Positions 1 to 51,902 of a stretch of 51,902 bases of DNA are shown here, piece by piece. The position numbers were made by a program, and so were the translations under genes. Origin of the DNA: Treponema sp. (lineage in GTDB: Bacteria > Spirochaetota > Spirochaetia > Treponematales > Breznakiellaceae); assembly GCA_031286095.1 (NCBI GenBank), contig JAITUY010000203.1, positions 1-51,902 on the forward strand. The letters are read 5' to 3'. Each line of letters opens with the position of its first letter. Positions within the stretch are counted from its first letter, which is position 1. The notes under the pieces are model-generated. The model had not been told where the DNA came from. It saw only the letters and a list, made by a program, of their open reading frames with translations, and ran no database searches.

Positions 1-121
1 ACAAGTCTTGCGGTTTTTCAGGCTATAAGCCTGCGAACGCGGACTTTAGTCCGAAAGTTCGACAAAACCGCGTTTTTTATATGAAGTTGTTCAGAAACTG
101 AAGTTTCCAAACAACTCTATT
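1..121. repeat. Dispersed multi-hairpin intergenic element, copy A (5'-truncated by window edge)
   Basis: Positions 1-120 match 10966-11085 with two substitutions (positions 72 and 109); internal hairpins CAGGCT-ata-AGCCTG and CGGAC-ttta-GTCCG and terminal palindrome GTTGTTCAGAAAC...GTTTCCAAACAAC. Confidence 0.93.
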
Positions 122-287
122 TATAGAAAACAATTCCTTAAAGAGAGTATCTTCGGAGATTGTCGTCCGGCTGTCTTTTGCAATAACAATTTTTTTCTCT
201 GCCATATCAGCCATTTATTTTACTTACTTTTTTAAATAAAAGATAGTGTTCAATAATTACATAATAAACTTAATTTATTTACGTTTT

Positions 288-1634
288 TTACTCCCCAAAA
301 TCCAATTCCACTACACCCGCTGGTCTTATTATAAGTTCTGTTACCGAGCCTGCGCCAAATACTTCTTCGATATATGAACGATAAACATTGAGCATATTCG
401 ATGGAATGTAAGCCTGAATGGTTCCGGCGAAACCGCCGCCATGAACTCTGCAGGCTCCTTGCAATTTGTGACTGCGGAAAAAGTTTTTGGTAAGAGCCAG
501 AGCGGCGCTTATAGCCTGAGTTTCATGATGGGAAGGCGGGTATGTATTTTGTAAAAGCTCCCATGAAGAATTACCCGATTCATTAACCATGTCCAGATAT
601 AATTTTAATGCCTGTTGTTTCTTCGTGTTTGTAGCCGCACTTTCCATTTCTACAAGAGCAAAAGTCATGGTGTCTACACGTTCGTTTTCATCAAAAAAAT
701 GGAGAGATCGCAAAAGAGCGCGGTCTCCCAGTGTTTTACGTACTTCTGAAGCGCGGTACAGAATAGTTTCCTTTTCCAACTCGCCAAGTACGGACTTGCC
801 GAAAAGCGCCGCTGTCGCATTCATCTCCGCGGGAATTGACGCGTAATCGACTGTAAGATTTGCGTGACTGCCGCCAGTGTTTACTACGCAAAGAGTGTAA
901 CCGCAAGCGGCAAGATCAAAAGAGATCGGCTTTATTTCAGGATGTACTTCATTAAAAAAATCGATAGCGGCCGCGCCGCCTGTAGCGCAGATTATTTGAT
1001 CCATTAATCCGCACGGTTTTCCAAAATAGACGTTTTCGGCAGTTTTGCCGATCTGTGCTATTTCTAAAGGACTGCGTTTTCCATCGCCGTAAAGGGAATC
1101 GAAAACGCGGCATAAAAGCATTTCCAGCGCCGCCGATGATGAAAGCCCCGAACCGGGTAATACGCCTGATTCCGCATTGGCTGAAAATCCTCCGGTAACG
1201 CCGGTTCCTGCGGCAATTCCCCTTATAATAGCCGAGGTTGTTCCTCGTTCTTCCGGCTTCGGTTTTAAATCAGGCGCGCCAGACGTGTCTGTTAGTTTTA
1301 CTTTTTCATCAGGAAAATTGGTTGAACGGAAGAATACGGTATTATCGTTTCGTTTTTGCACAACGGCTACATTGTCCAAATGAATAGACGCGGCTAACAC
1401 TTTTCCTCTGTTATGATCGGTATGATTTCCAGCCAGCTCTGTTCTTCCCGGAGCGCTGAACATCCGCAAATTTTCATTCTCAGAAAATTTGTCCGTACCG
1501 CTTTTTGATATTTCTGTTATCAAAGATTTATAACGTCTTCGGGCGGCTTCAACTTCAGATGAACCATAAAGCCAGGAAAATATTTCCGCGGCGCGCTTCG
1601 AATCAATTTTTATTAATAGTTCTTTTATATTCAT
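288..1634 (-). CDS. galK: Galactokinase (GHMP kinase)
   Basis: Motifs APGRTELAGNHTDHNRG, PGSGLSSSAA, CGLMDQ and RVHGGGFAG are typical of galactokinases. Confidence 0.9.
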   Translation of the reverse strand: MNIKELLIKIDSKRAAEIFSWLYGSSEVEAARRRYKSLITEISKSGTDKFSENENLRMFSAPGRTELAGNHTDHNRGKVLAASIHLDNVAVVQKRNDNTVFFRSTNFPDEKVKLTDTSGAPDLKPKPEERGTTSAIIRGIAAGTGVTGGFSANAESGVLPGSGLSSSAALEMLLCRVFDSLYGDGKRSPLEIAQIGKTAENVYFGKPCGLMDQIICATGGAAAIDFFNEVHPEIKPISFDLAACGYTLCVVNTGGSHANLTVDYASIPAEMNATAALFGKSVLGELEKETILYRASEVRKTLGDRALLRSLHFFDENERVDTMTFALVEMESAATNTKKQQALKLYLDMVNESGNSSWELLQNTYPPSHHETQAISAALALTKNFFRSHKLQGACRVHGGGFAGTIQAYIPSNMLNVYRSYIEEVFGAGSVTELIIRPAGVVELDFGE

Positions 1635-2191
1635 TTTTGGTTTCTAAAAATTATCAAGTAGTCAATAAAAGATACTATGGAAATAATGACCGAAATAATA
1701 AAAATGATAAGAGTTCCTGTTTTGAAATACGGGAGCAGTTGTTTAAAGACGGCAAGACGGTGAAGGCTGTCCGTTAGCAGGGCGGAACCTCCGGCAAAAA
1801 TGTAAAAGACTGTTTTTACTTTTCCGCTTATGCGTGCCCCAAGGGTAACGCCTTTTTTCAGCATTAAATTACGGATAAAGAGAATACTGAATTCGCGGTA
1901 AATGACCAGTAAAAAAAGAACAGCCGGAAAAATACCATCGACTACAAAACAGAAGAAACAGGTAAGTTGCATGAAAGTATCGGCAAAGGGATCGAAAAGT
2001 TTGCCAAAATCGCTTACTTCGTTTTGTTTGCGGGCTACCATGCCATCAAGCATATCGGTTAATTCGGAAACAATGAAAATGAACCAGAGTACGGGAACTG
2101 TCCACGCCTCTTTACCGGGTAATAAAAAGATAATAAAAAACACAGGCGCAAGAATAATCCGGGATAGCGTAATTTTATTTGCAAGGTTCAT
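1631..2191 (-). CDS. pgsA: CDP-diacylglycerol--glycerol-3-phosphate 3-phosphatidyltransferase
   Basis: N-terminal MNLANKITLSR and CDP-alcohol phosphotransferase motif DMLDGMVAR...FGKLFDPFAD; hydrophobic; 4-bp overlap with galK. Confidence 0.9.
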   Translation of the reverse strand: MNLANKITLSRIILAPVFFIIFLLPGKEAWTVPVLWFIFIVSELTDMLDGMVARKQNEVSDFGKLFDPFADTFMQLTCFFCFVVDGIFPAVLFLLVIYREFSILFIRNLMLKKGVTLGARISGKVKTVFYIFAGGSALLTDSLHRLAVFKQLLPYFKTGTLIIFIISVIISIVSFIDYLIIFRNQK

Positions 2192-2234
2192 ATATGAATA
2201 TTGTATTCTAATCTTGAATATGTCAATATTAAGT

Positions 2235-2831
2235 ATGGACGAAAAACAACTGGTTTGGAATGAAAAAGGGCGAAAGAAAGTTTTTGATTGTAATGTGTTT
2301 TCCGTTTGGGAATCTTACTGTAGCCCTCCTGGTAGCCAGCTGGGCAACTCGCCGGAAGACAGCGGCGGCGGTAAACTGCATACTTTTACCGTTTTGGACG
2401 CCAGAGACTGGGTCATGGTTATACCTATTATTGGAAGCTCTGATGGGGAAAAATTTATCATGGTGTGGCAGTGGCGGCATGGCGCAAAAAGTTTAAGCCT
2501 TGAATTTCCAGGGGGAGTTTTTGAACCGGGCGAAAAACCGGAAGAGGCCGCTGTCCGTGAATTGCTGGAAGAGACGGGGTACAAGCCTGAAAAACTTACT
2601 AAGCTTGGAGATTTTAATCCCAATCCGGCGATTATGACAAACAAAATACATTTTTTCCTTGCTGAAAATCTTTGTAGTGAGGGAAGACAGTCTTTAGATG
2701 ATGATGAATATGTTGATGTTGCTCTGATTGATACCAAAGAGGTATTTCAGGGTATAGGAAAGGAACCTTACATTCACGCGCTAACAGGGACAGCCTTGTC
2801 TCTGTATAACGCACGAATGCATAAGTTCTAG
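2235..2831 (+). CDS. NUDIX hydrolase (ADP-ribose pyrophosphatase-like)
   Basis: Nudix box GGVFEPGEKPEEAAVRELLEETG plus QWRHG and LDDDE. Start placed at ATG 2235 (2220 possible); the track's 1902 start overlaps pgsA on the opposite strand. Confidence 0.85.
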   Translation: MDEKQLVWNEKGRKKVFDCNVFSVWESYCSPPGSQLGNSPEDSGGGKLHTFTVLDARDWVMVIPIIGSSDGEKFIMVWQWRHGAKSLSLEFPGGVFEPGEKPEEAAVRELLEETGYKPEKLTKLGDFNPNPAIMTNKIHFFLAENLCSEGRQSLDDDEYVDVALIDTKEVFQGIGKEPYIHALTGTALSLYNARMHKF

Positions 2832-3595
2832 GGACGCCACATACCTTCGCGTGCTTCGCCCTTTATGCTTGGAATATCAATTACCATACCTGGTTCAATC
2901 AAGTCCGGATTATTCGGGTCGGACAGTTTTGATTTATTGGCATTATAGAGCAGTCTCCACTTTGTAGGGTCTCCGTAAACCCATGAGTAGCCTGAAATGT
3001 TCCACAGGCAGTCTCTTTCTTTTGCCCATGTTCTGACAGTGTACTGTTTTGGAAGCCCGGTAGTAGACGTACTTATGTTAGTTCTGCCTTTTTCCAGCGC
3101 CGCAAAAATATTTATGGATTTTGTCGCCGAAGAAATCGCTTCGCTCCAGTTCTCGGCGGAATGGAATTCCACGCCGCTTTCGTAATAAAATTTTCCTTCT
3201 TTGTAATCAATCGGGTAGCGGCGTTCTATATTGTTTTTGTCCGCCCACTCAAGAAGGCGCTTTGCTTCCGCTATCAATTGAACAGAAACAAATTCGTCTG
3301 AAAGCTGAGCAAAACGAATTGCTTCCTGGGCAAAACCGGTGGAAGCGTCATAGTCGCCGATCTCATAGGTGTCATGAGCCAGTTTTGTCAGCCGCATACT
3401 TTCAACGAAGAATTCATTGTTAAGTATACCTTCTGGAATAAATGTTTCTTCGCCCTCTACAGTTACCGCAAAGTAGGGAACGGAGTAAAAAAGCGGCAGT
3501 GTCAGCTCCAACTCAAAAGTTTCCTGCTGAGCAAAGATTGCCTGACTTGTGAAGATCATACAAATTAACAGTATAAAAGTAATTTTGCGGTTCAT
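2828..3595 (-). CDS. Exported protein with C-terminal LysM-type peptidoglycan-binding domain
   Basis: Signal-peptide-like N-terminus; C-terminal YTVR...DCLWNISG..VYGDPTKWRLLYNANK...NPDLIEPG LysM-like pattern. Confidence 0.8.
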   Translation of the reverse strand: MNRKITFILLICMIFTSQAIFAQQETFELELTLPLFYSVPYFAVTVEGEETFIPEGILNNEFFVESMRLTKLAHDTYEIGDYDASTGFAQEAIRFAQLSDEFVSVQLIAEAKRLLEWADKNNIERRYPIDYKEGKFYYESGVEFHSAENWSEAISSATKSINIFAALEKGRTNISTSTTGLPKQYTVRTWAKERDCLWNISGYSWVYGDPTKWRLLYNANKSKLSDPNNPDLIEPGMVIDIPSIKGEAREGMWRP

Positions 3596-4659
3596 TTTGA
3601 ACCTCCTTCAATTATTTTTTCAGCCTCAATGGCTGTTTCAGAACTTTCTTCAACTTTTTCTTCGGCTTGTCTTATTGTTTCCATGGCTAAAAGGCGTTTT
3701 TCTTCGGTCTGTTGTCCTGCAATAACAAAAAGCGCTTCCGCTTCGACATACTGTTTTCCTGCGGCAGAATAGTTTTCGTTTTTATAGCTGTCTTCGGCGG
3801 TGTTAAATACCGTATCGGCTTCGCGGAAACTGTCCCGAACGGCAATATTAACTTTGTTTGCAATGGCAATCTCTCTTTCGGAAGTGGCGGAAGCCCGGCG
3901 TTCGGCGGCATAGGCAATCCAGCCGTTTGTAAGCACAATGTTAAAACGAAGCAGGGCTTCTTCTGCGTTTTCGATCGCGCCTTTTTTATTTCCGGCATCG
4001 TACGAAGTTACCGCCGTTTGGGAAATCTCATCTGCTTTTTCAAAATTTTCAGGATCGTACTTGATAAAATCGCGATCGGTAATTTCTTGTCTTGCTAAAA
4101 GGATTTTTGCTCCCAAAAGCAGAGTTTCATATTCATCTAACGCCTCCGCAATGGTCTCTTTTGCGGCATAGTAATCTTTCGCTTCGTATTGGTCTTTTGC
4201 AGTAAGAGCAATTTTATCCGCTTTTTCTACATATTGGGGAAACAATGCTGAAAACTTTGACCTTACCAGTTCCTCTCTTATGGCAAGAATTTCGTCTTCC
4301 CTTGCCTGAGCGTAAAGCGGAATTGTCATATCAAAAAGCTCGCTGTATCTGTCCGCCACTTTGTTTAACGCGGCCACAGCCGTTTTAACTTCATCCTGAT
4401 TTGAAACCGGCATTTTTTTGGCTGTTGCGTACTGGGCTTCAACATCTTCCCATTCGCTTGGAAAATATGAAGGAACCTCAAAATCCATGGCGCTTTTTCT
4501 GATTTTTTCTATACGGGAATTGACGGTTGCTATTTCTGCCGGAGTAGCCTGTTGTTGCGCTTTAGGCGCCGGTGTGGGTGCGGGTGCGGATTTACAGGAA
4601 ATAACTGTTAATGAGAATATAATTAACGCGAGAAAACACATGAAAATCTTTTTTTTCAT
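3592..4659 (-). CDS. Putative lipoprotein, alpha-helical repeat protein
   Basis: MKKK, hydrophobic stretch and VISC lipobox-like cysteine; Ala/Glu-rich helical body; 4-bp overlap with the LysM gene. Confidence 0.72.
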   Translation of the reverse strand: MKKKIFMCFLALIIFSLTVISCKSAPAPTPAPKAQQQATPAEIATVNSRIEKIRKSAMDFEVPSYFPSEWEDVEAQYATAKKMPVSNQDEVKTAVAALNKVADRYSELFDMTIPLYAQAREDEILAIREELVRSKFSALFPQYVEKADKIALTAKDQYEAKDYYAAKETIAEALDEYETLLLGAKILLARQEITDRDFIKYDPENFEKADEISQTAVTSYDAGNKKGAIENAEEALLRFNIVLTNGWIAYAAERRASATSEREIAIANKVNIAVRDSFREADTVFNTAEDSYKNENYSAAGKQYVEAEALFVIAGQQTEEKRLLAMETIRQAEEKVEESSETAIEAEKIIEGGSK

Positions 4660-4729
4660 AAAATAACTCCTTAATCAGCATAGTATACCCCTGATTGGTT
4701 CTTTTTTCAAGATAGTTTATAAGGTAAAT

Positions 4730-6394
4730 ATGGAAAAAAAAGTTGAAGATGCGGGGAATGTTGGTTCGTCTTTACCGGCGGACTCTTTTGTACGACAAGA
4801 TTCGGCTCTGTCCCTGTCGGCAGGGTCTCTCGTACGGCAAGGTTCTGCTCTGTCCCTGCTTACGCTGTTTTCACGTATTCTCGGTCTTTTAAGGGAAATG
4901 ACCAAGGCGAGTTTTCTTGGGACAAGCGCGCTTTCGGACGCCTTTTCTGTCGCTTTTTTACTGCCAAATCTGTTCCGACGCCTTTTTGCAGAAGGCTCCA
5001 TTTCGGTTGCTTTTATTCCTACTTTTAAAGAATACTTGCTGGGAAATGACAGGGAAAAAACTAGGGAATTCCTTTCCTGTATTTTCACTTTTTTGACGTT
5101 TTTTGTAACTTTAATGGTTGTTATTGGAATTCTTATCTCCCCGTTGCTTATAAGTCTTTTGAAAATGAAAGAGTTTGATGAAACTGTCCTTCTTTCAAGA
5201 ATTATGTTTCCTTTTCTTGGGTTTATGTCGCTGGCGGCGCTGTTTCAGGGGGTGCTGAATAGTCTGCATATTTTTACCCCGTCGGGGCTTGCGCCAATTC
5301 TGCTGAACATTGTTACGATTCTTTGCACTTACGCTCTGAGTCCTTTTACCCAAAACCCCGCCCGGGCAATGGCGACCGGCGTTCTTTTGGGAGGGTTTTT
5401 GAGCGCGGCGATTCAGTTTCCTTTTGTGATAAAACGGGGACAGAGCTTCGTTTTTACAGGTTTGAAAAGAGCTATAAACAACCCTGGTACGCGTAAAGTT
5501 CTTATGCTTATAAGCCCAACGATAGTCGGAATGGCGGCTTATCAGCTTAATGATCTTGTTTCCACAGTTCTGGCCGGGCGTGCTGGCGAGGGTATTGTCT
5601 CTAGTCTTCAGTATTCGCTTAGGCTTCAGGAGTTGATACTTGGCGTTTTTGCGGTTTCTATAGGGACAGTGCTACTCCCAAATCTTGCCGAGTACGCTAA
5701 AACATCGCAATGGGATGTTTTTAACAAACGGCTCGTATCCGCGATGAACATTATCGCTCTGATTACTATTCCTATTACTGTTTTTTCGCTTTTTGAGGGA
5801 CAGAGCTTGATACGTCTTCTCTTTCAAAACCGTAGTTTCGACGAAACCTCGGTTAGCTTGACATTGTCGGCCTTCACGTTCCATATGCCTGGTTTGTTTT
5901 TTATCGCGCTTAACCGTATTCTAGCCCCCGCTTTTTACGCACAGAGCGATACCAAGTCCCCCACCTTGGCAGGTATTATTTCTTTTGCGGCTAATATTTG
6001 TCTTGCGGCTATACTTGCCGGGCCGTTGCGAGGCGCAGGGATTGCTTTGGCTCTGTCCCTCGCCAGCGCTGTTAATACCGTTTTGCTTCTTGCTTTCCTT
6101 AAAAAGAACCCCAATGTTGCCATTGGTCATGCCTTCGGTTCCGCTATCGTCTATATTGTAAAATTATTGATTATTTCGGGATTGGCGATAGTTCCCGTCT
6201 ATTTTTTATCTCCTTTGTTAAAGGCTTTTTTTGCAGGTAATGGGCGGTATATCTCTTATGGCGTACCGCTAATTATTAACTCGTTTGTTTATATTCTGCT
6301 TGGAGTTGCGATGCTTGCCGTTGCAAAGGACAGGCATATTCTTGCTTTAGTTGCTATGTTGAAAAGAAGGGATAGAAATGGAGACAGAGCTTAA
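4730..6394 (+). CDS. murJ: Lipid II flippase MurJ (MviN) with duplicated N-terminal segment
   Basis: SRILGLLRE, AF..PNLFRRLFAEG and AFYAQSDTKSP motifs; many transmembrane segments. Confidence 0.93.
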   Translation: MEKKVEDAGNVGSSLPADSFVRQDSALSLSAGSLVRQGSALSLLTLFSRILGLLREMTKASFLGTSALSDAFSVAFLLPNLFRRLFAEGSISVAFIPTFKEYLLGNDREKTREFLSCIFTFLTFFVTLMVVIGILISPLLISLLKMKEFDETVLLSRIMFPFLGFMSLAALFQGVLNSLHIFTPSGLAPILLNIVTILCTYALSPFTQNPARAMATGVLLGGFLSAAIQFPFVIKRGQSFVFTGLKRAINNPGTRKVLMLISPTIVGMAAYQLNDLVSTVLAGRAGEGIVSSLQYSLRLQELILGVFAVSIGTVLLPNLAEYAKTSQWDVFNKRLVSAMNIIALITIPITVFSLFEGQSLIRLLFQNRSFDETSVSLTLSAFTFHMPGLFFIALNRILAPAFYAQSDTKSPTLAGIISFAANICLAAILAGPLRGAGIALALSLASAVNTVLLLAFLKKNPNVAIGHAFGSAIVYIVKLLIISGLAIVPVYFLSPLLKAFFAGNGRYISYGVPLIINSFVYILLGVAMLAVAKDRHILALVAMLKRRDRNGDRA

Positions 6395-7718
6395 AAAAAA
6401 ACGCAACTTTCCCGCTGTAGTTCTTGCTGGACGTCCCAATGTGGGAAAATCGACGCTCTTTAACCGCCTTCTGCGTAAACGCAGGGCGATTACAGACCCA
6501 ACGCCTGGTGTTACACGCGATCCTGTATCAGCCGAGTGTTTTATCGCGGGAAAACCTCTCATGTTGATTGATACAGGTGGTTTCAAATTGGCTGATTGCG
6601 AAGGCATAGACAAACTAGTGGTAAAAAAAACCCTTGAAACAATAAAAAAAGCAAACCTTATTGTTTTACTGCTCGATGTTGGGGATATAACAAGTGAGGA
6701 CGAAGAATTTATAGACATTTTACGTCCATACAGGGAAAAACTTGTTGTGGCAGTCAACAAAACCGAAGGCGGCAGAGGGCAAGCCGATGCGTGGAATGTT
6801 TTAAAGTTTGGATTTGACAAGGTTTTTATGATTTCAGCTGAACATGGCGACAATATCGGCGAGCTTGAACAGGAGATTATCAGACGGCTGGATTTTTCTG
6901 GGGTTGAAGACGCTCCTGAGGGACAGAGCTCAAATATACGCATCGCCTTGATGGGAAAACCAAACACAGGTAAATCAACGCTTTCCAACCGTCTTACATC
7001 GTCAAACTCGTCTATTGTAAGCGAAATACCAGGCACTACCAGAGACACGGTTGAGGGGAATTTTCGTTGGAAAGGGCGGGATTTTATGATTCTGGACACT
7101 GCCGGCATACGGCGTAAATCGAAAGTTACGGAAAATATCGAATACTATTCGGTTAACCGCGCCATTAAAGCGATTGATTCGGCGGATATTGTCGTTTTGA
7201 TGATCGATGCGGCGGAGGGACTTACTGATCAGGATAAAAAGATAGCGGCTCTAGCCCATGACAAGGGCAGAGGGATCATAATGACTCTTAACAAGTGGGA
7301 CACCATGCCTCAGAACAAAAATACGTTTAAGGACATATCAAGCAGAATACATTTCCTCTTTGGTCAGATGGAATACGCGCCCATTGTCCCTGTCAGCGCG
7401 AAGGACGGAAACGGCGTTGATAAACTTTTGAGTACCGTGATAAAAATGTATGATCAGCTTAGTCAGAATATAACAACTGCCCGTCTTAATCAGGCGCTCG
7501 AACAGTGGCTAACAGAACATCCTCCGCCAATCGGTCCGCATACGCGCTTTAAACTTAAATACATTGTACAAAAATCAGCCAACCCCGTGCATTTTATCAT
7601 CTTTGCATCCCGTCCGCATGCAGTTAGTGATGCGTATATTTCATATTTGCGTAACAAGATACGCAAGGACTTGGGTTTTTCTCTTGTTCCTGTTCTTGTC
7701 GAGGTAAAGGGGTCTTAG
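6378..7718 (+). CDS. der: Ribosome biogenesis GTPase Der (EngA)
   Basis: Two G domains (GRPNVGKSTLFN...DTGG...NKTE; GKPNTGKSTL...DTAG...NKWD) plus a KH-like C-terminal domain. Confidence 0.96.
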   Translation: METELKKKRNFPAVVLAGRPNVGKSTLFNRLLRKRRAITDPTPGVTRDPVSAECFIAGKPLMLIDTGGFKLADCEGIDKLVVKKTLETIKKANLIVLLLDVGDITSEDEEFIDILRPYREKLVVAVNKTEGGRGQADAWNVLKFGFDKVFMISAEHGDNIGELEQEIIRRLDFSGVEDAPEGQSSNIRIALMGKPNTGKSTLSNRLTSSNSSIVSEIPGTTRDTVEGNFRWKGRDFMILDTAGIRRKSKVTENIEYYSVNRAIKAIDSADIVVLMIDAAEGLTDQDKKIAALAHDKGRGIIMTLNKWDTMPQNKNTFKDISSRIHFLFGQMEYAPIVPVSAKDGNGVDKLLSTVIKMYDQLSQNITTARLNQALEQWLTEHPPPIGPHTRFKLKYIVQKSANPVHFIIFASRPHAVSDAYISYLRNKIRKDLGFSLVPVLVEVKGS

Positions 7719-8224
7719 TAACGTATGTGTTCTGGACAATACCGCAAAATCAGATCATCCGGCGGATCGGTAACGGTTTTTATCCCGTGATGATGATGCC
7801 ACAATCCGCCGAATCTCCACTTCCATGAGAAGTCAACCAATTGCGCATTAACCGGATTGTCATCAATATAGATAAACACCCGCAGAAAATCTACTATTCC
7901 TTCGATAATTCGGGAATAGAACCGTTCACCCCATACATGTCCCTTTAAATTATGCCTTCGATTCCATGTCATAGCGAATACGCTGAGAATCCACTGCATA
8001 ATCCGGGATAGGGATTCGTTTTTTCCAGGTTTAATCAACAGGTGAATATGGTTGTTCATAATGCAGAAGTTTCTGAGCTGAAAACGGTATCGCTTTTTTG
8101 CACGCTCAATGACATTTAGCATGAGCGTTTTCTCTTCTTCCAGCAATAGAGCCATTTCACCTCGGTTAATCCTGGCGGAAACATGATACTCAGCTCCCTC
8201 AAGGAGCTTCCTACAAACACGCAT
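7715..8224 (-). CDS. HUH Y1 tyrosine transposase, RAYT/IS200-like, stand-alone
   Basis: YHVSARINRG N-terminus, CIMNNHIHLL (HUH), GHVWGERFYS and catalytic YIDDNPVNAQLV, the layout of REP-associated tyrosine transposases; no tnpB nearby. Confidence 0.9.
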   Translation of the reverse strand: MRVCRKLLEGAEYHVSARINRGEMALLLEEEKTLMLNVIERAKKRYRFQLRNFCIMNNHIHLLIKPGKNESLSRIMQWILSVFAMTWNRRHNLKGHVWGERFYSRIIEGIVDFLRVFIYIDDNPVNAQLVDFSWKWRFGGLWHHHHGIKTVTDPPDDLILRYCPEHIRY

Positions 8225-8327
8225 AATAATATATATGTACGTATATGAATGGCGCTTTACTTTAAGGGGATTTTTTTGACATTTTTTTAGATTTTAGCTC
8301 TGTCCCTGTTATTTTGCTTATATTTTC

Positions 8328-8373
8328 GCTCTGTCCCCACAAAAACTCAATTTAAACCCACTGGGGACAGAGC
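8328..8373. repeat. REP-like hairpin upstream of the Y1 transposase
   Basis: GCTCTGTCCCCA (8328-8339) pairs perfectly with TGGGGACAGAGC (8362-8373) around a 22-nt loop; an extra direct copy of the left arm lies at 8297-8306. Confidence 0.88.
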
Positions 8374-8424
8374 CACTTTATTTAACCTCTTGTTTCTAGT
8401 TTCTATTTCTGTAATGCTATACTA

Positions 8425-9291
8425 ATGAAAGCTTATCTTGATATTGTGCATAAAGTTCTTGAAAATGGGTTTCATAAGGCAAACCGCACCGGTATTGATG
8501 CCTTGACTATCGCCGGAGCAATGTTTGAGCATGATATGGTGGATGGTTTTCCGCTTTTAACTACAAAAAAAGTTCCCTTGCGCCTTGTCGCTTCTGAACT
8601 TGAGTTTTTTATCCGCGGTATAACCGATAAAGAATGGCTAAAGGAGCAAAATAACCACATTTGGGATGAATGGTGCAGTCCGTCTGTAGTTCCATACGCT
8701 ACCGATGAGCAAACCAAGGCTAAAATGACTGCCGAGCGTGAATTGGGTCCTATTTACGGCTGGCAGTGGCGCAATTTTGGCGCGAAATATATGTCTTTTG
8801 ATAATCCTCCTAAGGGACAGAGCTTAGATCAACTTAAGCAGATGGTTCAAACCTTAAAAACCGATCCTGATAACAGGCGCATGATTGTAAGCGCATGGAA
8901 TCCAATCGATCTTCCGCGAATGGCTCTGCCCCCATGCCATTACGCTTTTCAGGTTACGGTAATAGGTGGCAAGTTGAATCTGCTCTGGAATCAACGTTCG
9001 GTCGACGTTGCGCTAGGACTGCCGTTTAATATTGCAAGTTACGGCTTGCTTCTGCACTTGCTTGCGAAAGAGGCAGGTCTTAGCGAAGGCAGGCTTATCG
9101 GGTTTTTGGGTGATGTTCATATTTATGTGAACCATGTCGAGGCTATCCAAGGACAATGCGGTCGCTCTCCAAAGATGTTGTCACGCGTTAAAACACCAAA
9201 CTTTTCTTCCATTTTTGACTGGCATTACGGCGATACGGTTATAGAAGGCTACGATCCCTACCCTGCGATAAAATTCGAGATAGCGGTTTAG
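8425..9291 (+). CDS. thyA: Thymidylate synthase
   Basis: RTG, FPLLTTKK, IWDEW, LGPIYGWQWR, MALPPCH, QRSVD..LGLPFNIASY and DVHIY motifs. Confidence 0.97.
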   Translation: MKAYLDIVHKVLENGFHKANRTGIDALTIAGAMFEHDMVDGFPLLTTKKVPLRLVASELEFFIRGITDKEWLKEQNNHIWDEWCSPSVVPYATDEQTKAKMTAERELGPIYGWQWRNFGAKYMSFDNPPKGQSLDQLKQMVQTLKTDPDNRRMIVSAWNPIDLPRMALPPCHYAFQVTVIGGKLNLLWNQRSVDVALGLPFNIASYGLLLHLLAKEAGLSEGRLIGFLGDVHIYVNHVEAIQGQCGRSPKMLSRVKTPNFSSIFDWHYGDTVIEGYDPYPAIKFEIAV

Positions 9292-9293
9292 TT

Positions 9294-9941
9294 ATGCGGG
9301 AGATTATCATAATCGCCGCGATGTCGGAAAACAGGGTTATTGGTAAAAACAATGTTATGCCGTGGTCCATAAGAGAAGAGATGGCGCATTTTACAAAATT
9401 GACAAAAGGCTGGCCCTGTATCATGGGCAGGAAAACATGGGAATCTCTGAAAAAAAAGCCTTTGCCGGGACGGCTGAATGTCGTTATTTCGGGAAAATTG
9501 ATGAAAGAGAGGCAGTTTCACCCACGTATGAATAGCTCTGTCCCCGAAGGAAAAGCTCCGTCCTCAAGTGGCAACTCTGTTTCCAAGCGACAACTTTGCT
9601 CCCAAGCGATAACTATGTCCCCGGTCAACGGCTCTGTCCCCGTAGGAGAAGCTCTGTCCCCCGAGCAACTTTCTCCAAACCTGAAAATATTCCCCTCCCT
9701 GTCCACCGCCATTGAACACTGCGCTGGTTACGAGAAAGTTTTTATATGTGGCGGAGAATCAATTTACAGACAGGCTCTTTCGCTGGCGGACAAGATTGAG
9801 TTGTCCGTAATTCACCGTCAATACGACGGCGATACATATTTCCCGGAAATTGACAACGCTTGCTGGAAAATAAGCAACACGAAAGATTTTGACGATTTTT
9901 CATTTATCACTTACACTAGAATTAAACAGGAGCAGTTATGA
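9294..9941 (+). CDS. folA: Dihydrofolate reductase with an internal repeat-derived insertion of about 50 aa
   Basis: ENRVIGKNNVMPW, IMGRKTWES, PLPGRLNVVIS, FICGGESIY and GDTYFP motifs; directly follows thyA; 215 aa versus about 160 aa for typical DHFR. Confidence 0.93.
   Translation: MREIIIIAAMSENRVIGKNNVMPWSIREEMAHFTKLTKGWPCIMGRKTWESLKKKPLPGRLNVVISGKLMKERQFHPRMNSSVPEGKAPSSSGNSVSKRQLCSQAITMSPVNGSVPVGEALSPEQLSPNLKIFPSLSTAIEHCAGYEKVFICGGESIYRQALSLADKIELSVIHRQYDGDTYFPEIDNACWKISNTKDFDDFSFITYTRIKQEQL
9535..9677 (+). repeat. Degenerate 19-20 bp tandem array inside folA
   Basis: Unit cores start at 9535 GCTCTGTCCC, 9555 GCTCCGTCCT, 9574 ACTCTGTTTC, 9593 ACTTTGCTCC, 9612 ACTATGTCCC, 9631 GCTCTGTCCC and 9651 GCTCTGTCCC. 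Confidence 0.85.
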
Positions 9942-10852
9942 AAGGACCAATTTTGGCAGTGCTTGCCGCAGGAATGGGAAGCCGTTACGGCGGCCTTAAA
10001 CAGATGGACATTATAGGAAAGAACGGTGAAGTACTGCTTGATTATTCGGTATACGACGCGGTTAAATCCGGTTTTGAAAAAGTTGTTTTTATAATCCGCA
10101 GGGACATAGAAAAAGATTTTAGCGGAATTGTACTTGCGCGGATGGGTTCTAAAGTAAAATATGAATTGGCTTTTCAGGAGGCGGACAGTTTGATACCTCC
10201 CGATATTTTTCGCGCCGCTCAAGAGGCGGGAAGAACCAAGCCATGGGGAACAGGTCACGCCCTGCTTTGCGCCACGGATAAAATTGACGCGCCATTCACG
10301 GTGATAAACGCCGATGATTTCTACGGAAGAGAGGCCTTTGCTGTTATGTGCAGGCATCTCAATTCTTCCGGCGAGGCCGCTATAGTGCCGTACCGCCTTG
10401 AAAAAACGCTTAGTCACCAGGGAACGGTTGCGCGCGGCGTCTGCAGTGTTGCGGACGGCTACCTTTCCGGTGTTGAGGAACTTACCGCTATTGAAAAAAA
10501 AGACGGGCGGATCATAAATACCGCCCCCGGCGGCGTAATCCGCGAACTTCTTCCAGAAACGCCCGTGTCGATGAATTTCTGGGGTTTTCAGCCGGAAATA
10601 CTTCCTGAATTTAAAAAATATTTTGATGATTATCTAAAGGAATTTTCTGCGGACGTGAAAGGGCAGATAAAAAGCGAATGTTTTATCCCCAAAGCGGCGG
10701 ATTATTTTATAAACCGTGGGATAATTAAGATAAAAGCGTTATCCGCCAATTCTGACTGGTTTGGTGTAACTTACAAAGAAGACAAGGAGGCGGCAATTAA
10801 AAAAATTGGAGAGCTAACCTCCGAGGGCGTATATCCGCCTAAACTTTGGTAA
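9938..10852 (+). CDS. Sugar-phosphate nucleotidyltransferase family protein
   Basis: LAAGMGSRYGGLKQ signature, RTKPWGTGHA, INADDFYG, SMNFWGF and WFGVTY. Confidence 0.85.
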   Translation: MKGPILAVLAAGMGSRYGGLKQMDIIGKNGEVLLDYSVYDAVKSGFEKVVFIIRRDIEKDFSGIVLARMGSKVKYELAFQEADSLIPPDIFRAAQEAGRTKPWGTGHALLCATDKIDAPFTVINADDFYGREAFAVMCRHLNSSGEAAIVPYRLEKTLSHQGTVARGVCSVADGYLSGVEELTAIEKKDGRIINTAPGGVIRELLPETPVSMNFWGFQPEILPEFKKYFDDYLKEFSADVKGQIKSECFIPKAADYFINRGIIKIKALSANSDWFGVTYKEDKEAAIKKIGELTSEGVYPPKLW

Positions 10853-10918
10853 ATAGCGTTTGCCTGAAGAACGATAGCCCGTATGGAAACCTATTACTTT
10901 TATTTTGTAATCAAATAA

Positions 10919-11086
10919 TGGACTTATTCGACAACTGCGAACCTTCGGTTCGAGTTGGTTGCCTCACAAGTCTTGCGGTTTTTCAGGCTATAAGCCTGCG
11001 AACGCGGACTTTAGTCCGAAAGTTCGACAAAACCGCATTTTTTATATGAAGTTGTTCAGAAACTGAAGTTTCCGAACAACTCTATT
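10919..11086. repeat. Dispersed multi-hairpin intergenic element, copy B (apparently complete, ~167 bp)
   Basis: Matches 1-120 and 51790-51902; imperfect terminal inverted repeats; several nested stems; lies between convergent genes. Confidence 0.93.
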
Positions 11087-11092
11087 CTTTTT

Positions 11093-12052
11093 TTACCAAC
11101 TAAACCTTAATGCCATTCTTGCCCCTAAATATAGTTTATTGTTATCATTTATTGAATATTTAACTATATTGAAAAAAAGAAGCCCTATATCGCTACCACT
11201 GTTATATTCCCAAGTTAATGTTGGACTGAGCAAAATACTTAAATTTGGAGTAATATTATATCCAAAATAAGGTATTATACTTAAATAATTAATAAAATCA
11301 TCTATTATCTTATTATGTGAGACAATTTCTGGGTTAAAATAAAATTTATTACCTAAATCAAAAATAGCCCCGAAACCGCCGCCAAAAACAACTTGCTGTT
11401 TTATGCCGTTTATAAATGGGTTATATCCAACAATAAATGATGTATAAAACATTTTAACTCCAATTTTAAACGATATGTTAAAAGGAACTATTTCAGAAAC
11501 ACCAAATTCTATTGCTTTATATCCACCATTGCGTACTATTGATAAAAAACCAATGGGAATACCATTTTCAATGACATCAGTATAATTTATAAACCCTAAT
11601 TGCAAACCATTTAATGATTTCGGTGTTGTATTTATAAAGCCAAATTGGATTCCGCATATATCTCCGATTGAGGTATTTACAAATCCTAACTGCAAACCAT
11701 TTAATGATTTCGGTGTTGTATTTATAAAGCCAAATTGGACTCCGCGTATATCTCCGATTGAGGTATTTACAAATCCCATTTGAAGACCTGTTAGGCTTCC
11801 TCCTATTGTATTAACAAAACCAAACTGTACAGTAGAAAAATCTTTTTGGTTCCAATTCACAAATCCAATTTGCGGTAAATTATGACTACCGCCAGCAATA
11901 TTTATAAATCCAATTAATGGAAATGTAAATTGTTCATTAACTATATTAAAGAATAGCGTATATACGCTAGTCTCTTTATTATCCTCTGCAAAATTCAATG
12001 TTGTTATTGTAAAAGACAATAAAATTGTTATAATAAGCTTTTTAATTTTCAC
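11093..12052 (-). CDS. AT-rich exported protein with 15-aa G(L/V)Q(L/F)GF(V/I)N repeats and a probable C-terminal beta-barrel
   Basis: GTG start after AGAAGGA; signal peptide ending NFA; tandem GxQxGFxN repeats like spirochaetal LA_2272-type surface repeats; C-terminus ALRFSW ends in an aromatic residue. Confidence 0.7.
   Translation of the reverse strand: MKIKKLIITILLSFTITTLNFAEDNKETSVYTLFFNIVNEQFTFPLIGFINIAGGSHNLPQIGFVNWNQKDFSTVQFGFVNTIGGSLTGLQMGFVNTSIGDIRGVQFGFINTTPKSLNGLQLGFVNTSIGDICGIQFGFINTTPKSLNGLQLGFINYTDVIENGIPIGFLSIVRNGGYKAIEFGVSEIVPFNISFKIGVKMFYTSFIVGYNPFINGIKQQVVFGGGFGAIFDLGNKFYFNPEIVSHNKIIDDFINYLSIIPYFGYNITPNLSILLSPTLTWEYNSGSDIGLLFFNIVKYSINDNNKLYLGARMALRFSW
11601..11776. repeat. 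90-bp tandem duplication within the repeat-protein gene
   Basis: 11601-11686 versus 11691-11776 differ at two positions (11650/11740 and 11656/11746). Confidence 0.9.
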
Positions 12053-12143
12053 TAATACATCCTTCTGTGATATATATCTGATATTTTAACTTATATAAAG
12101 TAAATTTTCAAATAATCTTTGTTCCAATTTTGCTCAACTCCAA

Positions 12144-12569
12144 TTAAGCGCCGGTTCCGTACCTTGACGACGTAAGATCGTCAATCTCCGCCATTTGGTA
12201 ATCCAGCATTTCCTTGCGGTGTTCTTTTTCGCGTTTTTCTTTAAGTTTTTCAAGCGTTTTGAGTTCTTTGGACGCTTCAAGATAAAGGGCGCGTTTTTCC
12301 TCAACTGCAATTTCTGCCTGAGCCGCCTTTTCCATCAGCCGCTCGGCTGACTGATCCAGCCTTAAAATATAATTATCCCACGCGCCAATCTCCTTTGTGG
12401 TGCTGAATCTTTGCTCTGCGGCATTCTGACGTTTAACAGCGGTTAATTTAATCTCATTCTCTACCATATTAAGGTTACTGATAGCCTGTCCAAGTTCTAT
12501 TTTACATTCTTCTTCCCTGAATTTCCTTAATTGAAGAACTTTCTGAAGGCTAAAACTAAATTTTTTCAT
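12144..12569 (-). CDS. fliJ: Flagellar export protein FliJ
   Basis: MKKFSFSLQKVLQLR N-terminus, coiled coil, EIDD near the C-terminus; immediately downstream of fliI. Confidence 0.88.
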   Translation of the reverse strand: MKKFSFSLQKVLQLRKFREEECKIELGQAISNLNMVENEIKLTAVKRQNAAEQRFSTTKEIGAWDNYILRLDQSAERLMEKAAQAEIAVEEKRALYLEASKELKTLEKLKEKREKEHRKEMLDYQMAEIDDLTSSRYGTGA

Positions 12570-14119
12570 CCGTTATCCAATTTTAGATTATCCAACTTGG
12601 GATTATCTAATCCCTGATTATCTAATCCCAAACTGCCCATACCAGGTATCGAAGAAAAAAGGGCGGCAACACTGTTAAGCGCCTTGGCGGTATCTTCCAC
12701 AGAAGTTGTATTTGCAATCTGCTGTTTTTCTTTTCCAGCGCGTGCGGGACGGCTGTTTACAAAAGGTTTCGCATTTTTATCTGTCATTTCTACGGAAGGA
12801 ATTTCTATGCCTGTTATTTCCGACATTGCGGTAAGAGTATCTTCCAATGACGATGGTTCATCTATCTCCTGAACAAGAAATTCTTCTATTGAATTATGTT
12901 TGGCTATCGCTTCATCTATAGCGGGATTGGAACCGTTGCGGTACGCGCCTACATTGATAAGGTCTTCCGCTCCCGCATAAACAGCCATTTTTTTACGAAT
13001 TTCACCAGCCGCACTGTTGGCCGACTGTCCTGATACGGAAGATGCGAGACGGGAAACGCTCTGCAGTACGTCAATCGCCGGATAATGATAGCCCTGCGCA
13101 AGCTGCCGCGAAAGAACAATGTGCCCGTCCAGAATACCGCGAACAGTATCCGAGACAGGTTCGTCCATGTCGTCTCCATCTACAAGGACTGTGTAAAAGC
13201 CAGTTATACTGCCCTTTTCCGAAGTACCGGACCTTTCAAGAAGTTTCGGCATGGAATCAAACATGCTTGGAGGATAGCCCCTCGTCGCAGGAGGCTCGCC
13301 GGACGCAAGACCGATTTCCCTCATTGCGCGCGCATAGCGCGTAACAGAATCAAATAGCAACATTACGTCAAGTCCCTGATCACGAAAAAATTCCGCCACA
13401 GCGGTTGCAACATAAGCCCCGCGAAGACGGGCAAGGGGCGGTGAATTGGAAGGAGTTACTATTAATACGCTTCGCGCAAGTCCTTCAGAACCTAAATCTT
13501 TTTCTATAAAGTCGTTTACTTCCCGTCCGCGCTCGCCTATCAGAGCTACAACATTAACATCGGCGGATGTGTTACGCGCAATCATACCAAGAAGCGTAGA
13601 TTTACCGACGCCCGAACCTGAAAAAATACCAAGACGCTGGCCTTTGCCAACAGCAAGAAGACCGTCAATCGCCCTTACGCCTGTGGTAACCCGTTCTGTG
13701 ACCCGCCTCCTTGTTAAAGGATCGGGCGGATTTGTAAGAGCAGGATACATACAAACGGCGTCAATATCTCCCTTACCGTCAATCGGCGTCCCAAGAGCGT
13801 CCAGTACCCTGCCCAAAAGTTTATTTGATACAGGCACTTCAAGTCGGGAACCAAGAGCGACAACTCTGTCGCCTACTTCCAGTCCTTCTGTTCCCTCAAA
13901 CGCCATAAGCTGAACTATCTCGTCTTTAAGACCGACAACTTCGGCCCTTATTTGAGCGTTGCCGCGAGCGGCGATAATTCTGCAAACCTCGCCTATAATA
14001 GCCTGCGGTCCGTGGCTCTCTATCAATAAACCCTGAACATTAATTATTTTTCCAGTACATTTTATCGGATCGGTACGTTGAGCGGATTCAATATATTTTT
14101 CAAAAATTACAGTTTCCAC
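12566..14119 (-). CDS. fliI: Flagellar export ATPase FliI with C-terminal extension
   Basis: GQRLGIFSGSGVGKSTLLG Walker A, LIGERGREV, GEPPATRGYP and LDGHIVLSR. Start placed at GTG 14119 behind GGGGAGGGG (track start 14149). Confidence 0.95.
   Translation of the reverse strand: METVIFEKYIESAQRTDPIKCTGKIINVQGLLIESHGPQAIIGEVCRIIAARGNAQIRAEVVGLKDEIVQLMAFEGTEGLEVGDRVVALGSRLEVPVSNKLLGRVLDALGTPIDGKGDIDAVCMYPALTNPPDPLTRRRVTERVTTGVRAIDGLLAVGKGQRLGIFSGSGVGKSTLLGMIARNTSADVNVVALIGERGREVNDFIEKDLGSEGLARSVLIVTPSNSPPLARLRGAYVATAVAEFFRDQGLDVMLLFDSVTRYARAMREIGLASGEPPATRGYPPSMFDSMPKLLERSGTSEKGSITGFYTVLVDGDDMDEPVSDTVRGILDGHIVLSRQLAQGYHYPAIDVLQSVSRLASSVSGQSANSAAGEIRKKMAVYAGAEDLINVGAYRNGSNPAIDEAIAKHNSIEEFLVQEIDEPSSLEDTLTAMSEITGIEIPSVEMTDKNAKPFVNSRPARAGKEKQQIANTTSVEDTAKALNSVAALFSSIPGMGSLGLDNQGLDNPKLDNLKLDNG
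12573..12632 (-). repeat. 4 x 15 bp tandem repeat encoding xLDNx at the FliI C-terminus
   Basis: Plus-strand units ttatccaattttaga, ttatccaacttggga, ttatctaatccctga, ttatctaatcccaaa; peptide GLDNQGLDNPKLDNLKLDNG. Confidence 0.85.
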
Positions 14120-51766: not shown

Positions 51767-51789
51767 CACCGCTACGCCGGTTTATATAT

Positions 51790-51902
51790 TGGACTTGTTC
51801 GACAACTGCGAACCTTCGGTTCGAGTTGGTTGTCTCATGTCAGCTACGCTGACCAGTCTTGCGGTTTTTCAGGCTATAAGCCTGCGAACGCGGACTTTAG
51901 TC
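51790..51902. repeat. Dispersed multi-hairpin intergenic element, copy C (3'-truncated by window edge)
   Basis: Matches copy B from 10919 onward, with an extra 15-nt hairpin GTCAGC-tac-GCTGAC at 51839-51853. Confidence 0.93.

What the first reader, a model, noticed from the sequence alone, without database searches (positions are those of the whole stretch)
4805..9660. A RAYT-like HUH transposase surrounded by copies of one 10-bp motif written into neighbouring housekeeping genes
Seen: 13 exact copies of GCTCTGTCCC/GGGACAGAGC within 4.86 kb around the Y1 transposase gene (forward 4805, 4847, 6050, 8297, 8328, 9535, 9631, 9651; reverse 5437, 5797, 6920, 8364, 8814), plus one-mismatch copies at 5663, 6381 and 8923. 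I found no exact copy in the other ~47 kb by eye; a given 10-mer is expected about 0.1 times in 52 kb on both strands at equal base frequencies. Ten copies are inside intact ORFs (murJ 5, der 1, thyA 1, folA 3) and the motif has no stop codon in any of its six frames. Established: RAYT/TnpA-REP enzymes are HUH single-strand nucleases flanked by cognate REP palindromes, and classical REPs are extragenic and spread genome-wide. Inference: this is a different, local and intragenic behaviour. Either the enzyme deposits or converts its recognition motif in cis within a few kb of its own gene, or a dense array of binding sites is selected around it. Either would be a local gene-editing or nucleoprotein-organising system that I cannot match to a described mechanism.
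Basis: partly seen in the sequence, partly recalled or inferred. Interest (0 to 1): 0.92.

Follow-up and report, generated by a model that had tools for sequence, protein, structure and literature searches.

The report
Transposase stamps motif into neighbouring genes
A single-strand-DNA transposase gene in a gut spirochaete is ringed by 13 exact copies of a 10-base motif, ten of them inside intact housekeeping genes, and most relatives show the same ring, so the enzyme likely rewrites nearby near-matches into exact copies of its own end sequence, a kind of local DNA editing that still needs a bench test.

Summary
Observation confirmed: 13 exact copies (0.04 expected), ten inside murJ, der, thyA and folA. 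The gene is a class-2 Y1/HUH transposase, closest to TIRYT/TIRtrons. In relatives with several copies of the element, the motif is its terminal inverted repeat and fits the published GGGGWSAS consensus. The ring is family-wide: 57 of 63 homologous loci carry distal copies (386 against 3 for the reversed motif), density falls with distance, and neighbours differ. At conserved codons the copies are in-place substitutions: agreement between genomes stops at 10-12 bases, and carriers sit in separate clades. In loops they are short tandem duplications. Motif variant tracks protein residue 99, which aligns with a guide-binding residue of E. coli TnpA-REP. The ring is not strictly local: 50 more copies lie elsewhere in this genome. 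Best reading (0.55): the cis-preferring enzyme converts near-matches into exact motifs, and selection filters the result. Selection or drive like that on DNA-uptake sequences (0.25) is not excluded; no enzyme activity was tested. Nine literature searches found no account of the in-gene ring. The scan noted the same phenomenon before in other genomes. New variant of a known kind.

The parts
7715..8224 (-). Y1/HUH transposase-like gene, 169 aa; N58-H59-I60-H61 (HuH) and Y119-I-D-D-N123-P124; its stop overlaps the der stop; the only Y1 gene found in the genome
   Evidence: ORF; PF01797 E 1.5e-14; NF047646 75.8 bits, cut-off 80; single copy; model pLDDT 91, best fold match 4ER8 TM 0.74; dN/dS about 0.05-0.10 against L002 and L003
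8297..8337 (+). Two direct intergenic copies (8297, 8328) upstream of the Y1 gene, in the orientation of the element's left terminal repeat
   Evidence: proximal upstream copies have this orientation in 102 of 112 cases across homologues; left end of dispersed copies
8328..8373 (.). Inverted pair 8328/8364: 12-bp stem with 22-nt loop, the only significant hairpin among the sites folded
   Evidence: -12.2 kcal/mol, z -6.4; five other stretches z between -1.35 and +0.94
4730..6394 (+). murJ with five copies. 4847, 5437, 5797 and 6050 are in-place substitutions at conserved codons (ALS, GQS, GQS, ALS). 4805 looks like a 42-bp tandem duplicate of the 4847 unit in the N-terminal extension. One-mismatch copy at 5663
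   Evidence: the duplication is read from the sequence
6378..7718 (+). der with one copy at 6920 in the variable stretch between the two GTPase domains; one-mismatch copy at its start (6381)
   Evidence: 4 of 10 bases differ from the nearest relative, no gap
8425..9291 (+). thyA with one copy at 8814, turning the usual G-x-G-x-D-Q-L into G-Q-S-L-D-Q-L; one-mismatch copy at 8923
   Evidence: exact copy in 2 of 30 orthologues
9294..9941 (+). folA (215 aa) with three copies (9535, 9631, 9651) inside an in-frame loop insertion of degenerate roughly 19-20-bp units
   Evidence: the longest loop among 28 orthologues; the next longest, in G021, is also motif-rich; 9535 and 9631 share a flank

Best explanation
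The motif (A)GCTCTGTCCC(C/T) marks the two ends of the Y1 element in relatives and rings the gene here, and the enzyme, likely acting mostly near its own gene, would nick and rejoin single-stranded DNA at near-matches so that they likely become exact copies, with selection likely keeping those the host protein tolerates. Shown: local enrichment across the family, element ends at the motif, in-place substitution with between-genome agreement limited to 10-12 bases, short tandem duplications in loops, very strong conservation of existing copies, and covariation of motif base 5 with residue 99. Inferred: direct binding of a linear (non-hairpin) motif, cis preference, and cleavage plus strand transfer with short-patch repair as the writing step. 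A specific untested idea: on the strand RGGGAC-RGAG the last four bases stand where E. coli has the GTAG guide, so the AG of the guide would select C|T cuts. The same reaction would also restore copies that have mutated, which would explain gain and upkeep with one process. In this window the element has no right end, so it is likely immobile while the gene stays under purifying selection.
For: Family-wide ring: the top de novo 10-mer belongs to this motif family in 42 of 57 loci of 10 kb or more. 57 of 63 loci with at least 6 kb of distal flank have distal copies and 37 have three or more separate sites; 386 copies against 3 for the reversed motif. Density decays with distance. The 81 loci fall into 46 neighbourhood groups. 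In a complete genome 16 of 44 copies lie within 14.8 kb of the gene. Element ends: five dispersed copies in one genome (87-93% alike) share sequence only from a left motif to a right motif, as far as their contigs reach, and 3 of the 4 with enough flank have no distal copy. Substitution: the 3 of 30 murJ genes with the cognate Y1 beside them carry exact copies at 11 of 12 site-by-genome positions; 23 of the other 27 carry none at those sites. Carriers agree fully inside the 10-mer and only partly in the flanks. G028 is nested (support 100) among motif-less relatives that encode G-E-x; it encodes G-Q-S, 5 of 10 bases from its nearest relative in flanks 83% alike. In G044, der changes S-[EDK]-[IV]-P (14 other orthologues) to S-S-V-P by a 6-base difference. 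Specificity: residue 99 is G with base T in 42 loci and Y with base C in 33; neither G-C nor Y-T occurs in 81. Residues 99 and 103 rank first and second for base 5 and align with E. coli Q95 and W99, which hold the outer guide bases (PMC3479197). Eleven more distant Y1 loci of the genus have 0 copies of this motif, and 8 of them have a different 10-13-mer of their own.
Against: No activity was measured. The all-or-none spectrum (exact 305 vs 0.8 expected, one mismatch 99 vs 23.8, two mismatches 313 vs 291) falls about 92-fold from 0 to 1 mismatch, the same as DNA-uptake sequences (82-92-fold, PMC1939737), so it does not single out writing. Motif sites are no more different from motif-less orthologues than those are from each other. 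Sites with 4-5 differences (8 of 103) are not above the binomial expectation (6.5). The test for copying from the element's own end was inconclusive: 1 of 28 flank positions, p 0.003 uncorrected and open to a G+C effect. Five genus genomes have raised counts but no cognate Y1 was found (completeness 83-94%). L007 sits by the same neighbour gene as long-resident loci yet has one distal site. One genome has 270 copies genome-wide and only about 8-fold local excess. The residue-base covariation rests mostly on two clades. No known Y1 reaction replaces 10-12 bases without a length change (none in the papers read).
Confidence: 0.55

Rival explanations
1. Selection or molecular drive on binding sites. 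Copies arise by ordinary mutation and are favoured and kept because a local array of sites for the protein is useful to the host or the element, as DNA-uptake sequences accumulate in permissive codons.
For: The mismatch spectrum resembles that of uptake sequences. Copies are much better conserved than their blocks (74 of 103 identical vs 20 expected). They sit at permissive sites and are absent from the highly conserved neighbour gene in 5 of 5 loci. The gene is under purifying selection. Uptake sequences show the same traits (PMC2397512).
Against: Two-mismatch intermediates are not enriched, so there is no visible ramp to climb. Gains of 5-6 bases occur at single sites. Distal copies have no orientation bias (121:115 upstream, 102:99 downstream). 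No function is known that would select each site only within a few kb of the gene, and rings persist where no cognate gene is found.
Confidence: 0.25
2. Footprints of local hopping. The whole element, or a mini-element bounded by the motif, jumps short distances and leaves one end behind when it is lost.
For: The element is mobile in some genomes and ends at the motif. The gene lies at different positions around murJ in three genomes. The C260 array lies beside the gene that neighbours Y1 in 8 of 14 close loci (control 4 of 300).
Against: 507 of 560 copies share no flank with any other copy of their locus. At conserved codons there is no length change. Insertion into murJ, der or thyA would probably be lethal before a clean loss (inference from their housekeeping roles).
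Confidence: 0.12
3. An ordinary REP/REPIN-type repeat family that happens to be densest near its transposase gene.
For: Best structural match is E. coli TnpA-REP. There is a genome-wide excess. One inverted pair forms a hairpin beside the gene. Intragenic REP insertions are known (PMC3733652).
Against: Bare 12-mer with no GTAG-tagged stem. Close pairs are direct 134 times and inverted 32 times. 320 of 437 distal copies lie in long ORFs, as substitutions rather than insertions at conserved codons.
Confidence: 0.06
4. Chance, codon bias or an assembly artefact.
For: Several sites are one or two bases from the motif in relatives because of the encoded peptide (ALS, GQS).
Against: 0.04 expected. 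0 of 23-25 orthologues without a ring carry it at most sites. It recurs in independent assemblies, including a complete genome. Long contigs of run X1, which may be the source sample, match the stretch without differences.
Confidence: 0.02

Closest known systems
TIRtron / TIRYT (PMC3733652), equated with TnpA-Y1 subclass 2.1 = RAYT group 1 (PMC6006769, PMC5581495)
   Same: Y1 gene flanked by inverted repeats with a GGGGWSAS core (here RGGGACAG), no GTAG hairpin REPs, moderately repeated families, single or grouped copies, Y---NP signature.
   Different: The passages read describe flanking repeats and dispersed families, not a distance-decaying ring of bare 12-mers substituted into host codons. 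The protein is short (169 aa against a subclass median of 238), has no C-terminal HTH and has GG where the subclass has SS. No biochemistry for this group was found in the papers read.
REPtron: E. coli TnpA-REP with REP/BIME (PDB 4ER8; PMC3479197, PMC8266576)
   Same: Same fold (TM 0.74) and catalytic motifs; single copy under purifying selection; motif covaries with residues aligned to guide-binding Q95 and W99.
   Different: REPs are GTAG-tagged hairpins, mostly extragenic and in inverted doublets, spread genome-wide. Here the motif is linear, mostly in ORFs, mostly single or direct, and concentrated near the gene.
DNA uptake sequences of Neisseria and Pasteurellaceae (PMC2397512, PMC1939737)
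   Same: A 10-mer held exact inside permissive codons of core genes, a similar drop from exact to one-mismatch copies, and new copies too divergent for point mutation, with an unexplained origin.
   Different: Uptake sequences are genome-wide and tied to transformation. This motif is tied to a transposase gene and peaks within about 5-8 kb of it.
IS200/IS605 TnpA
   Same: HUH/Y1 fold (TM about 0.5); some relatives occur as dispersed multi-copy elements.
   Different: Y---NP rather than Y---Q; ends are inverted linear motifs, not subterminal hairpins; no tnpB-sized ORF beside the gene; single copy here.

Membership tests
TnpA-Y1 class 2 (RAYT-like) | HuH motif and Y---NP catalytic motif | tested here: met
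   N-H-I-H 58-61 and YIDDNP 119-124; H61, Y119, N123 and P124 invariant in 36 aligned homologues; signature from PMC6006769
TnpA-Y1 class 2 (RAYT-like) | TnpA-REP fold | tested here: met
   Foldseek best hit 4er8_A, E 5e-9, TM 0.74; the only PDB sequence hit
TnpA-Y1 class 2 (RAYT-like) | Passes the NCBIfam RAYT model NF047646 | tested here: not met
   75.8 bits against a cut-off of 80
TIRtron / TIRYT | Gene flanked by terminal inverted repeats | tested here: inconclusive
   Met in relatives (L022, L026, L028, L031); in the window only the left-end copies exist and the gene abuts der
TIRtron / TIRYT | Repeat core fits GGGGWSAS | tested here: met
   GGGGACAG in 6 of 13 window copies, AGGGACAG in 7; consensus from PMC3733652. 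The CCTCC variants of distant relatives depart at one position
TnpA-Y1 subclass 2.1 | C-terminal extension with SS motif and HTH-like domain | tested here: not met
   169 aa, Pfam finds only Y1_Tnp; the ten commonest tail hexamers carry GG, or NG in one case, and none SS; 81 homologues are 105-209 aa. PMC6006769 says subgroup 2.1.2 is heterogeneous for the distal domain
TnpA-Y1 subclass 2.1 | Placement in the subclass by tree or subclass profile | not tested
   Reference sequences and profiles were not in hand; the two supplement files held as text name no spirochaete
REPtron (RAYT groups 2/3) | GTAG-tagged hairpin REP | tested here: not met
   Consensus is limited to about 12 bases; single copies do not fold significantly
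REPtron (RAYT groups 2/3) | Repeats extragenic and in inverted doublets | tested here: not met
   320 of 437 distal copies in ORFs; close pairs 134 direct, 32 inverted
REPtron (RAYT groups 2/3) | Single-strand cleavage and strand transfer directed by the repeat | not testable with these tools
   Needs purified protein
IS200/IS605 | Y---Q motif, multi-copy, subterminal hairpins | tested here: not met
   Y---NP; one copy; NF033573 30 bits against a cut-off of 55
DNA uptake sequence | Even genome-wide distribution | tested here: not met
   150- to 340-fold local excess
DNA uptake sequence | Biases DNA uptake in natural transformation | not testable with these tools
   No competence data for this organism

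The most novel reading that the evidence does not exclude
A widespread clade of small HUH enzymes are cis-acting sequence writers. Each overwrites near-matches within several kb of its own gene with an exact 10-12-base signature, without RNA, without a hairpin and without changing length, even inside essential genes, and keeps repairing them. The signature can be retuned by residues in the guide pocket (99, 103). This would be a new route of site-directed mutation in bacteria and a candidate answer to how short repeats first arise.
Probability: 0.45. Interest if true: 0.9.

Novelty: new variant of a known kind. Interest (0 to 1): 0.72.

Why it matters
RAYT-like genes occur in about a quarter of bacterial species and their benefit to the host is unresolved (PMC5581495). 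For the largest group (subclass 2.1/TIRYT) no REPs were found (PMC6006769), and the papers read report no biochemistry for it. This locus family supplies a defined 12-base substrate, a predicted specificity switch and a measurable genomic output, so that group becomes testable. If the enzyme writes the motif, it is a natural short-patch DNA editor that changes amino acids in housekeeping proteins and lengthens their loops. It would also bear on the open question of how exact short motifs such as uptake sequences arise at dissimilar sites (PMC2397512).

Tried and rejected
Public runs: no RNA holder listed. Only contigs were available, so laying X1-X3 showed no usable variant or joint at the motif sites, which is no evidence either way. 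Templated-copying test: inconclusive. An excess-divergence profile around motif sites showed no excess. Ancestral states were not reconstructed, so gain against ancient retention at the shared murJ sites rests on the tree pattern and on pairwise differences; only G028 is a clear gain. Search for Y1 remnants near the orphan rings: none by profile in G028, G044 and G039 or by tblastx/blastn in these and G029; incomplete assemblies leave absence open. Rfam over 1-13000: no match. Plasmid collection: 17 records, all under 40% identity among the 15 listed, not followed up. Search of the Quentin supplement for spirochaetes: none in the 2 files held. The careful Y1 tree did not finish; the quick tree was used. 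Rejected: chance or codon bias, classical REP hairpins, IS200/IS605 membership, strict locality. Literature searches gave no description of the in-gene ring. The library lacks most subscription papers, and I did not see Figure 9 or the TIRYT alignment supplement of PMC3733652, which may bear on membership.
Full report
Observation. The 13 exact copies, their strands and the three nearby one-mismatch copies are as reported; shuffles give 0.04 exact copies. Ten lie in open frames of murJ, der, thyA and folA, and the motif has no stop codon in any frame. The genome (2.77 Mb, 88% complete) holds 63 copies: 13 here, two tandem arrays of 14, and 22 scattered, against about 3.8 expected. Local density is 150- to 340-fold that of the rest. 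Relatives' titles and the run label point to a termite-gut spirochaete.

The protein. The gene at 7715-8224 is the only Y1 gene found in the genome. It has N-H-I-H and YIDDNP, just misses the curated RAYT cut-off, folds like E. coli TnpA-REP (TM 0.74) and is under purifying selection (dN 0.085 and 0.147, dS 1.6 and 1.5 against L002 and L003). It lacks the SS motif and HTH tail typical of subclass 2.1.

The ring is family-wide. I fetched the best 80 of 153 confirmed homologous loci. Without naming a motif, the 10-mer at the most separate sites belongs to the NCTCYGTCCC family in 42 of 57 loci of 10 kb or more; in 68 control windows of this genome only one reached 8 separate sites, and that was another repeat. 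Taking the best of eight variants per locus, 57 of 63 loci with at least 6 kb of distal flank (the window included) have distal copies, 37 have three or more separate sites and 6 have none; 386 copies against 3 for the reversed motif. Density is 31 per 10 kb in the 500 bases upstream, about 4-10 at 1-5 kb and 1-5 at 8-10 kb. The 81 loci fall into 46 neighbourhood groups; near relatives are not independent. In a complete genome (L059/G001) 16 of 44 copies lie within 14.8 kb of the gene, and in G004 31 of 50 lie on the gene's contig. Against strict locality, G048 has 270 copies genome-wide and 10 in the 20-kb locus. The consensus spans about 12 bases, (A)GCTCTGTCCC(C/T). Of distal copies, 320 of 437 are in long ORFs (87% cover), in both orientations equally and in all six frames; proximal upstream copies are oriented 102 to 10.

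What the motif is. One genome has five dispersed copies of the element at 87-93% identity. Where contigs reach, they share sequence only from a left GGGACAGAGC to a right motif copy, ending at the inverted GCTCTGTCCC in three. So the motif is the element's terminal inverted repeat. It fits the GGGGWSAS core published for TIRtrons (PMC3733652; passages and section 16). Three of the four copies with enough flank have no distal site and one has two, which suggests rings build up after arrival; L007 is a counter-example. In the window the right end is missing. The C260 array lies beside groEL (label recognised from sequence, not from a call), the neighbour of Y1 in 8 of 14 close loci (4 of 300 random proteins hit these loci), so it is probably a remnant of an earlier adjacency.

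How copies sit in genes. Among 40 genomes of the genus, the cognate Y1 was found in 3, each within about 1.5 kb of murJ but at a different position. These have 51-63 copies genome-wide. Five without a detected cognate gene have 19-44, and the other 32 have 0-11. I aligned 30 murJ genes of the 34 genomes with a match. At four conserved sites the three Y1-adjacent genomes carry 11 of 12 possible exact copies; G039, G044, G028 and G032 carry 3, 4, 2 and 1; 23 carry none. There is no gap at these sites. Carriers agree completely inside the 10-mer but only partly in the flanks, although synonymous sites between them are near saturation. On a tree with motif codons masked, G028 sits (support 100) among motif-less relatives and G021 sits in a clade (98) with 12 motif-less genomes. 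Nine relatives around G028 encode G-E-x where it encodes G-Q-S. In G044 a copy replaces 6 of 10 bases in der's S-[EDK]-[IV]-P-G-T-T-R. G032, the nearest relative of this genome, has no Y1 found (77% complete) and near-copies with 1, 2, 1, 0 and 2 mismatches, as expected from decay after loss, though not proof of it. A second route is short tandem duplication in loops and termini (folA, the murJ ends, the arrays); it accounts for about 53 of 560 copies, while 507 share no flank. The three orphan-ring genomes were grouped by the feature counted, so only the Y1-adjacent comparison is free of circularity.

Upkeep. Of 118 sites with an aligned partner at 79-99.5% identity, 15 had gaps and were set aside. 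Of 103, 74 are identical (20 expected), 16 differ at 1-2 bases (62 expected) and 13 at 3-5 (21 expected); shared sites are counted from both sides. Within 6 kb, exact copies are 381-fold enriched, one-mismatch 4.2-fold and two-mismatch 1.08-fold. groEL holds none in 5 of 5 adjacent loci, so selection filters the sites.

Link to the protein. Residue 99 is G with base-5 T in 42 loci and Y with C in 33, with no G-C or Y-T among 81. This is mostly two clades, but three T-bearing loci fall inside the Y clade, and L055 and L074 among them carry N and Q instead of Y. Residues 99 and 103 align with E. coli Q95 and W99, named in PMC3479197 as holding the outer guide bases while A3 and G4 select C|T (passages and section 17). 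Eleven of 17 more distant Y1 loci in the genus were examined: none has this motif and 8 have their own 10-13-mer.

Mechanism. I favour cis-preferring writing with selective filtering (0.55): one process would explain gain at near-matches, multi-base differences, upkeep while the gene is present and decay with distance. It is inferred, not shown. Results against it: the mismatch spectrum matches uptake sequences (PMC1939737, passages); there is no excess divergence at motif sites; 4-5-base differences are not above expectation; the templating test was inconclusive; and rings occur without a detected gene. Selection or drive (0.25), local-hopping footprints (0.12), an ordinary REP family (0.06) and chance (0.02) are the rivals.

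Comparison and novelty. It works like a TIRtron whose end motif has spread locally. It is not a REPtron or an IS200/IS605 element by the features tested, and membership of subclass 2.1 is unsettled. Papers seen: PMC5581495 (parts 2-3 of 6 and passages); PMC6006769 (abstract, sections 11, 12, first part of 15, supplement search); PMC3733652 (passages, section 16); PMC3479197 (passages, section 17); PMC8266576 (abstract, first part of the discussion); PMC2397512 and PMC1939737 (passages). Intragenic REP insertions are in print; a distance-decaying ring of substituted motifs was not found in searches. Earlier unchecked notes of this scan describe the same thing in other spirochaetes, a Bdellovibrio relative and a myxobacterium; I had reached the TIRYT reading before seeing them and do not count them as support. 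Verdict: real, general, new variant of a known kind; interest 0.72.

Noticed in passing
window 10911-11098, also 1-121 and 51786-51902: An unrelated repeat of about 180 bp with imperfect inverted ends (MITE-like): 395 BLAST pieces in the genome, 80 of 150 bp or more; very high depth in run X1; no Rfam match.
   Followed up: partly
G000 C214:6129-6631 and C260:3059-3543: Tandem arrays of 14 motif copies each, units of about 38 bp and 19/38 bp; C260 lies upstream of groEL, C214 runs from the end of a long ORF into the intergenic region.
   Followed up: partly
G000 C22:21004-21607, C72:2376-2644, C125:5368-5656, C145:16215-16236: Small in-gene clusters far from Y1: 4 copies in an ispE-like gene, 2 each in two tRNA-dihydrouridine-synthase-like genes, 2 in a coaE-like gene (labels recognised from sequence, not from a call). 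They may mark earlier Y1 positions or action in trans.
   Followed up: partly
L171-L181 (distant Y1 genes of the genus): Other Y1 subfamilies carry near-palindromic 12-13-mers (GGTGCCAGGCAC, GGTGACAGTCAC, GGTGTCAATCAC, GGTATCAATTAC), some in 37-bp tandem arrays; several share an upstream CCATATATA element, and some have a C-terminal extension of about 110 aa.
   Followed up: partly
L170:6173-6305 (G021 murJ end): murJ gains a C-terminal extension that repeats its own internal FEGQS motif site, a local duplication centred on the motif.
   Followed up: no
window 2236-7718 compared with L148 and L156: The nudix-lysM-lipoprotein-murJ-der block (first labels recognised from sequence) is inverted relative to G012 and G014, and the Y1 gene lies at one breakpoint; G032 shares the inversion.
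   Followed up: no
L029: An 82%-identical Y1 with 14 motif copies on a 4-kb contig titled as Fibrobacteria: cross-phylum transfer or a binning error.
   Followed up: no
G037, many contigs: About 30 matches of a more distant, shorter Y1 family, many at contig ends: probably an active IS200-like element.
   Followed up: no
window 11093-12052 (-): A 319-aa ORF with repeated GxQxGFVN units and no Pfam match.
   Followed up: no
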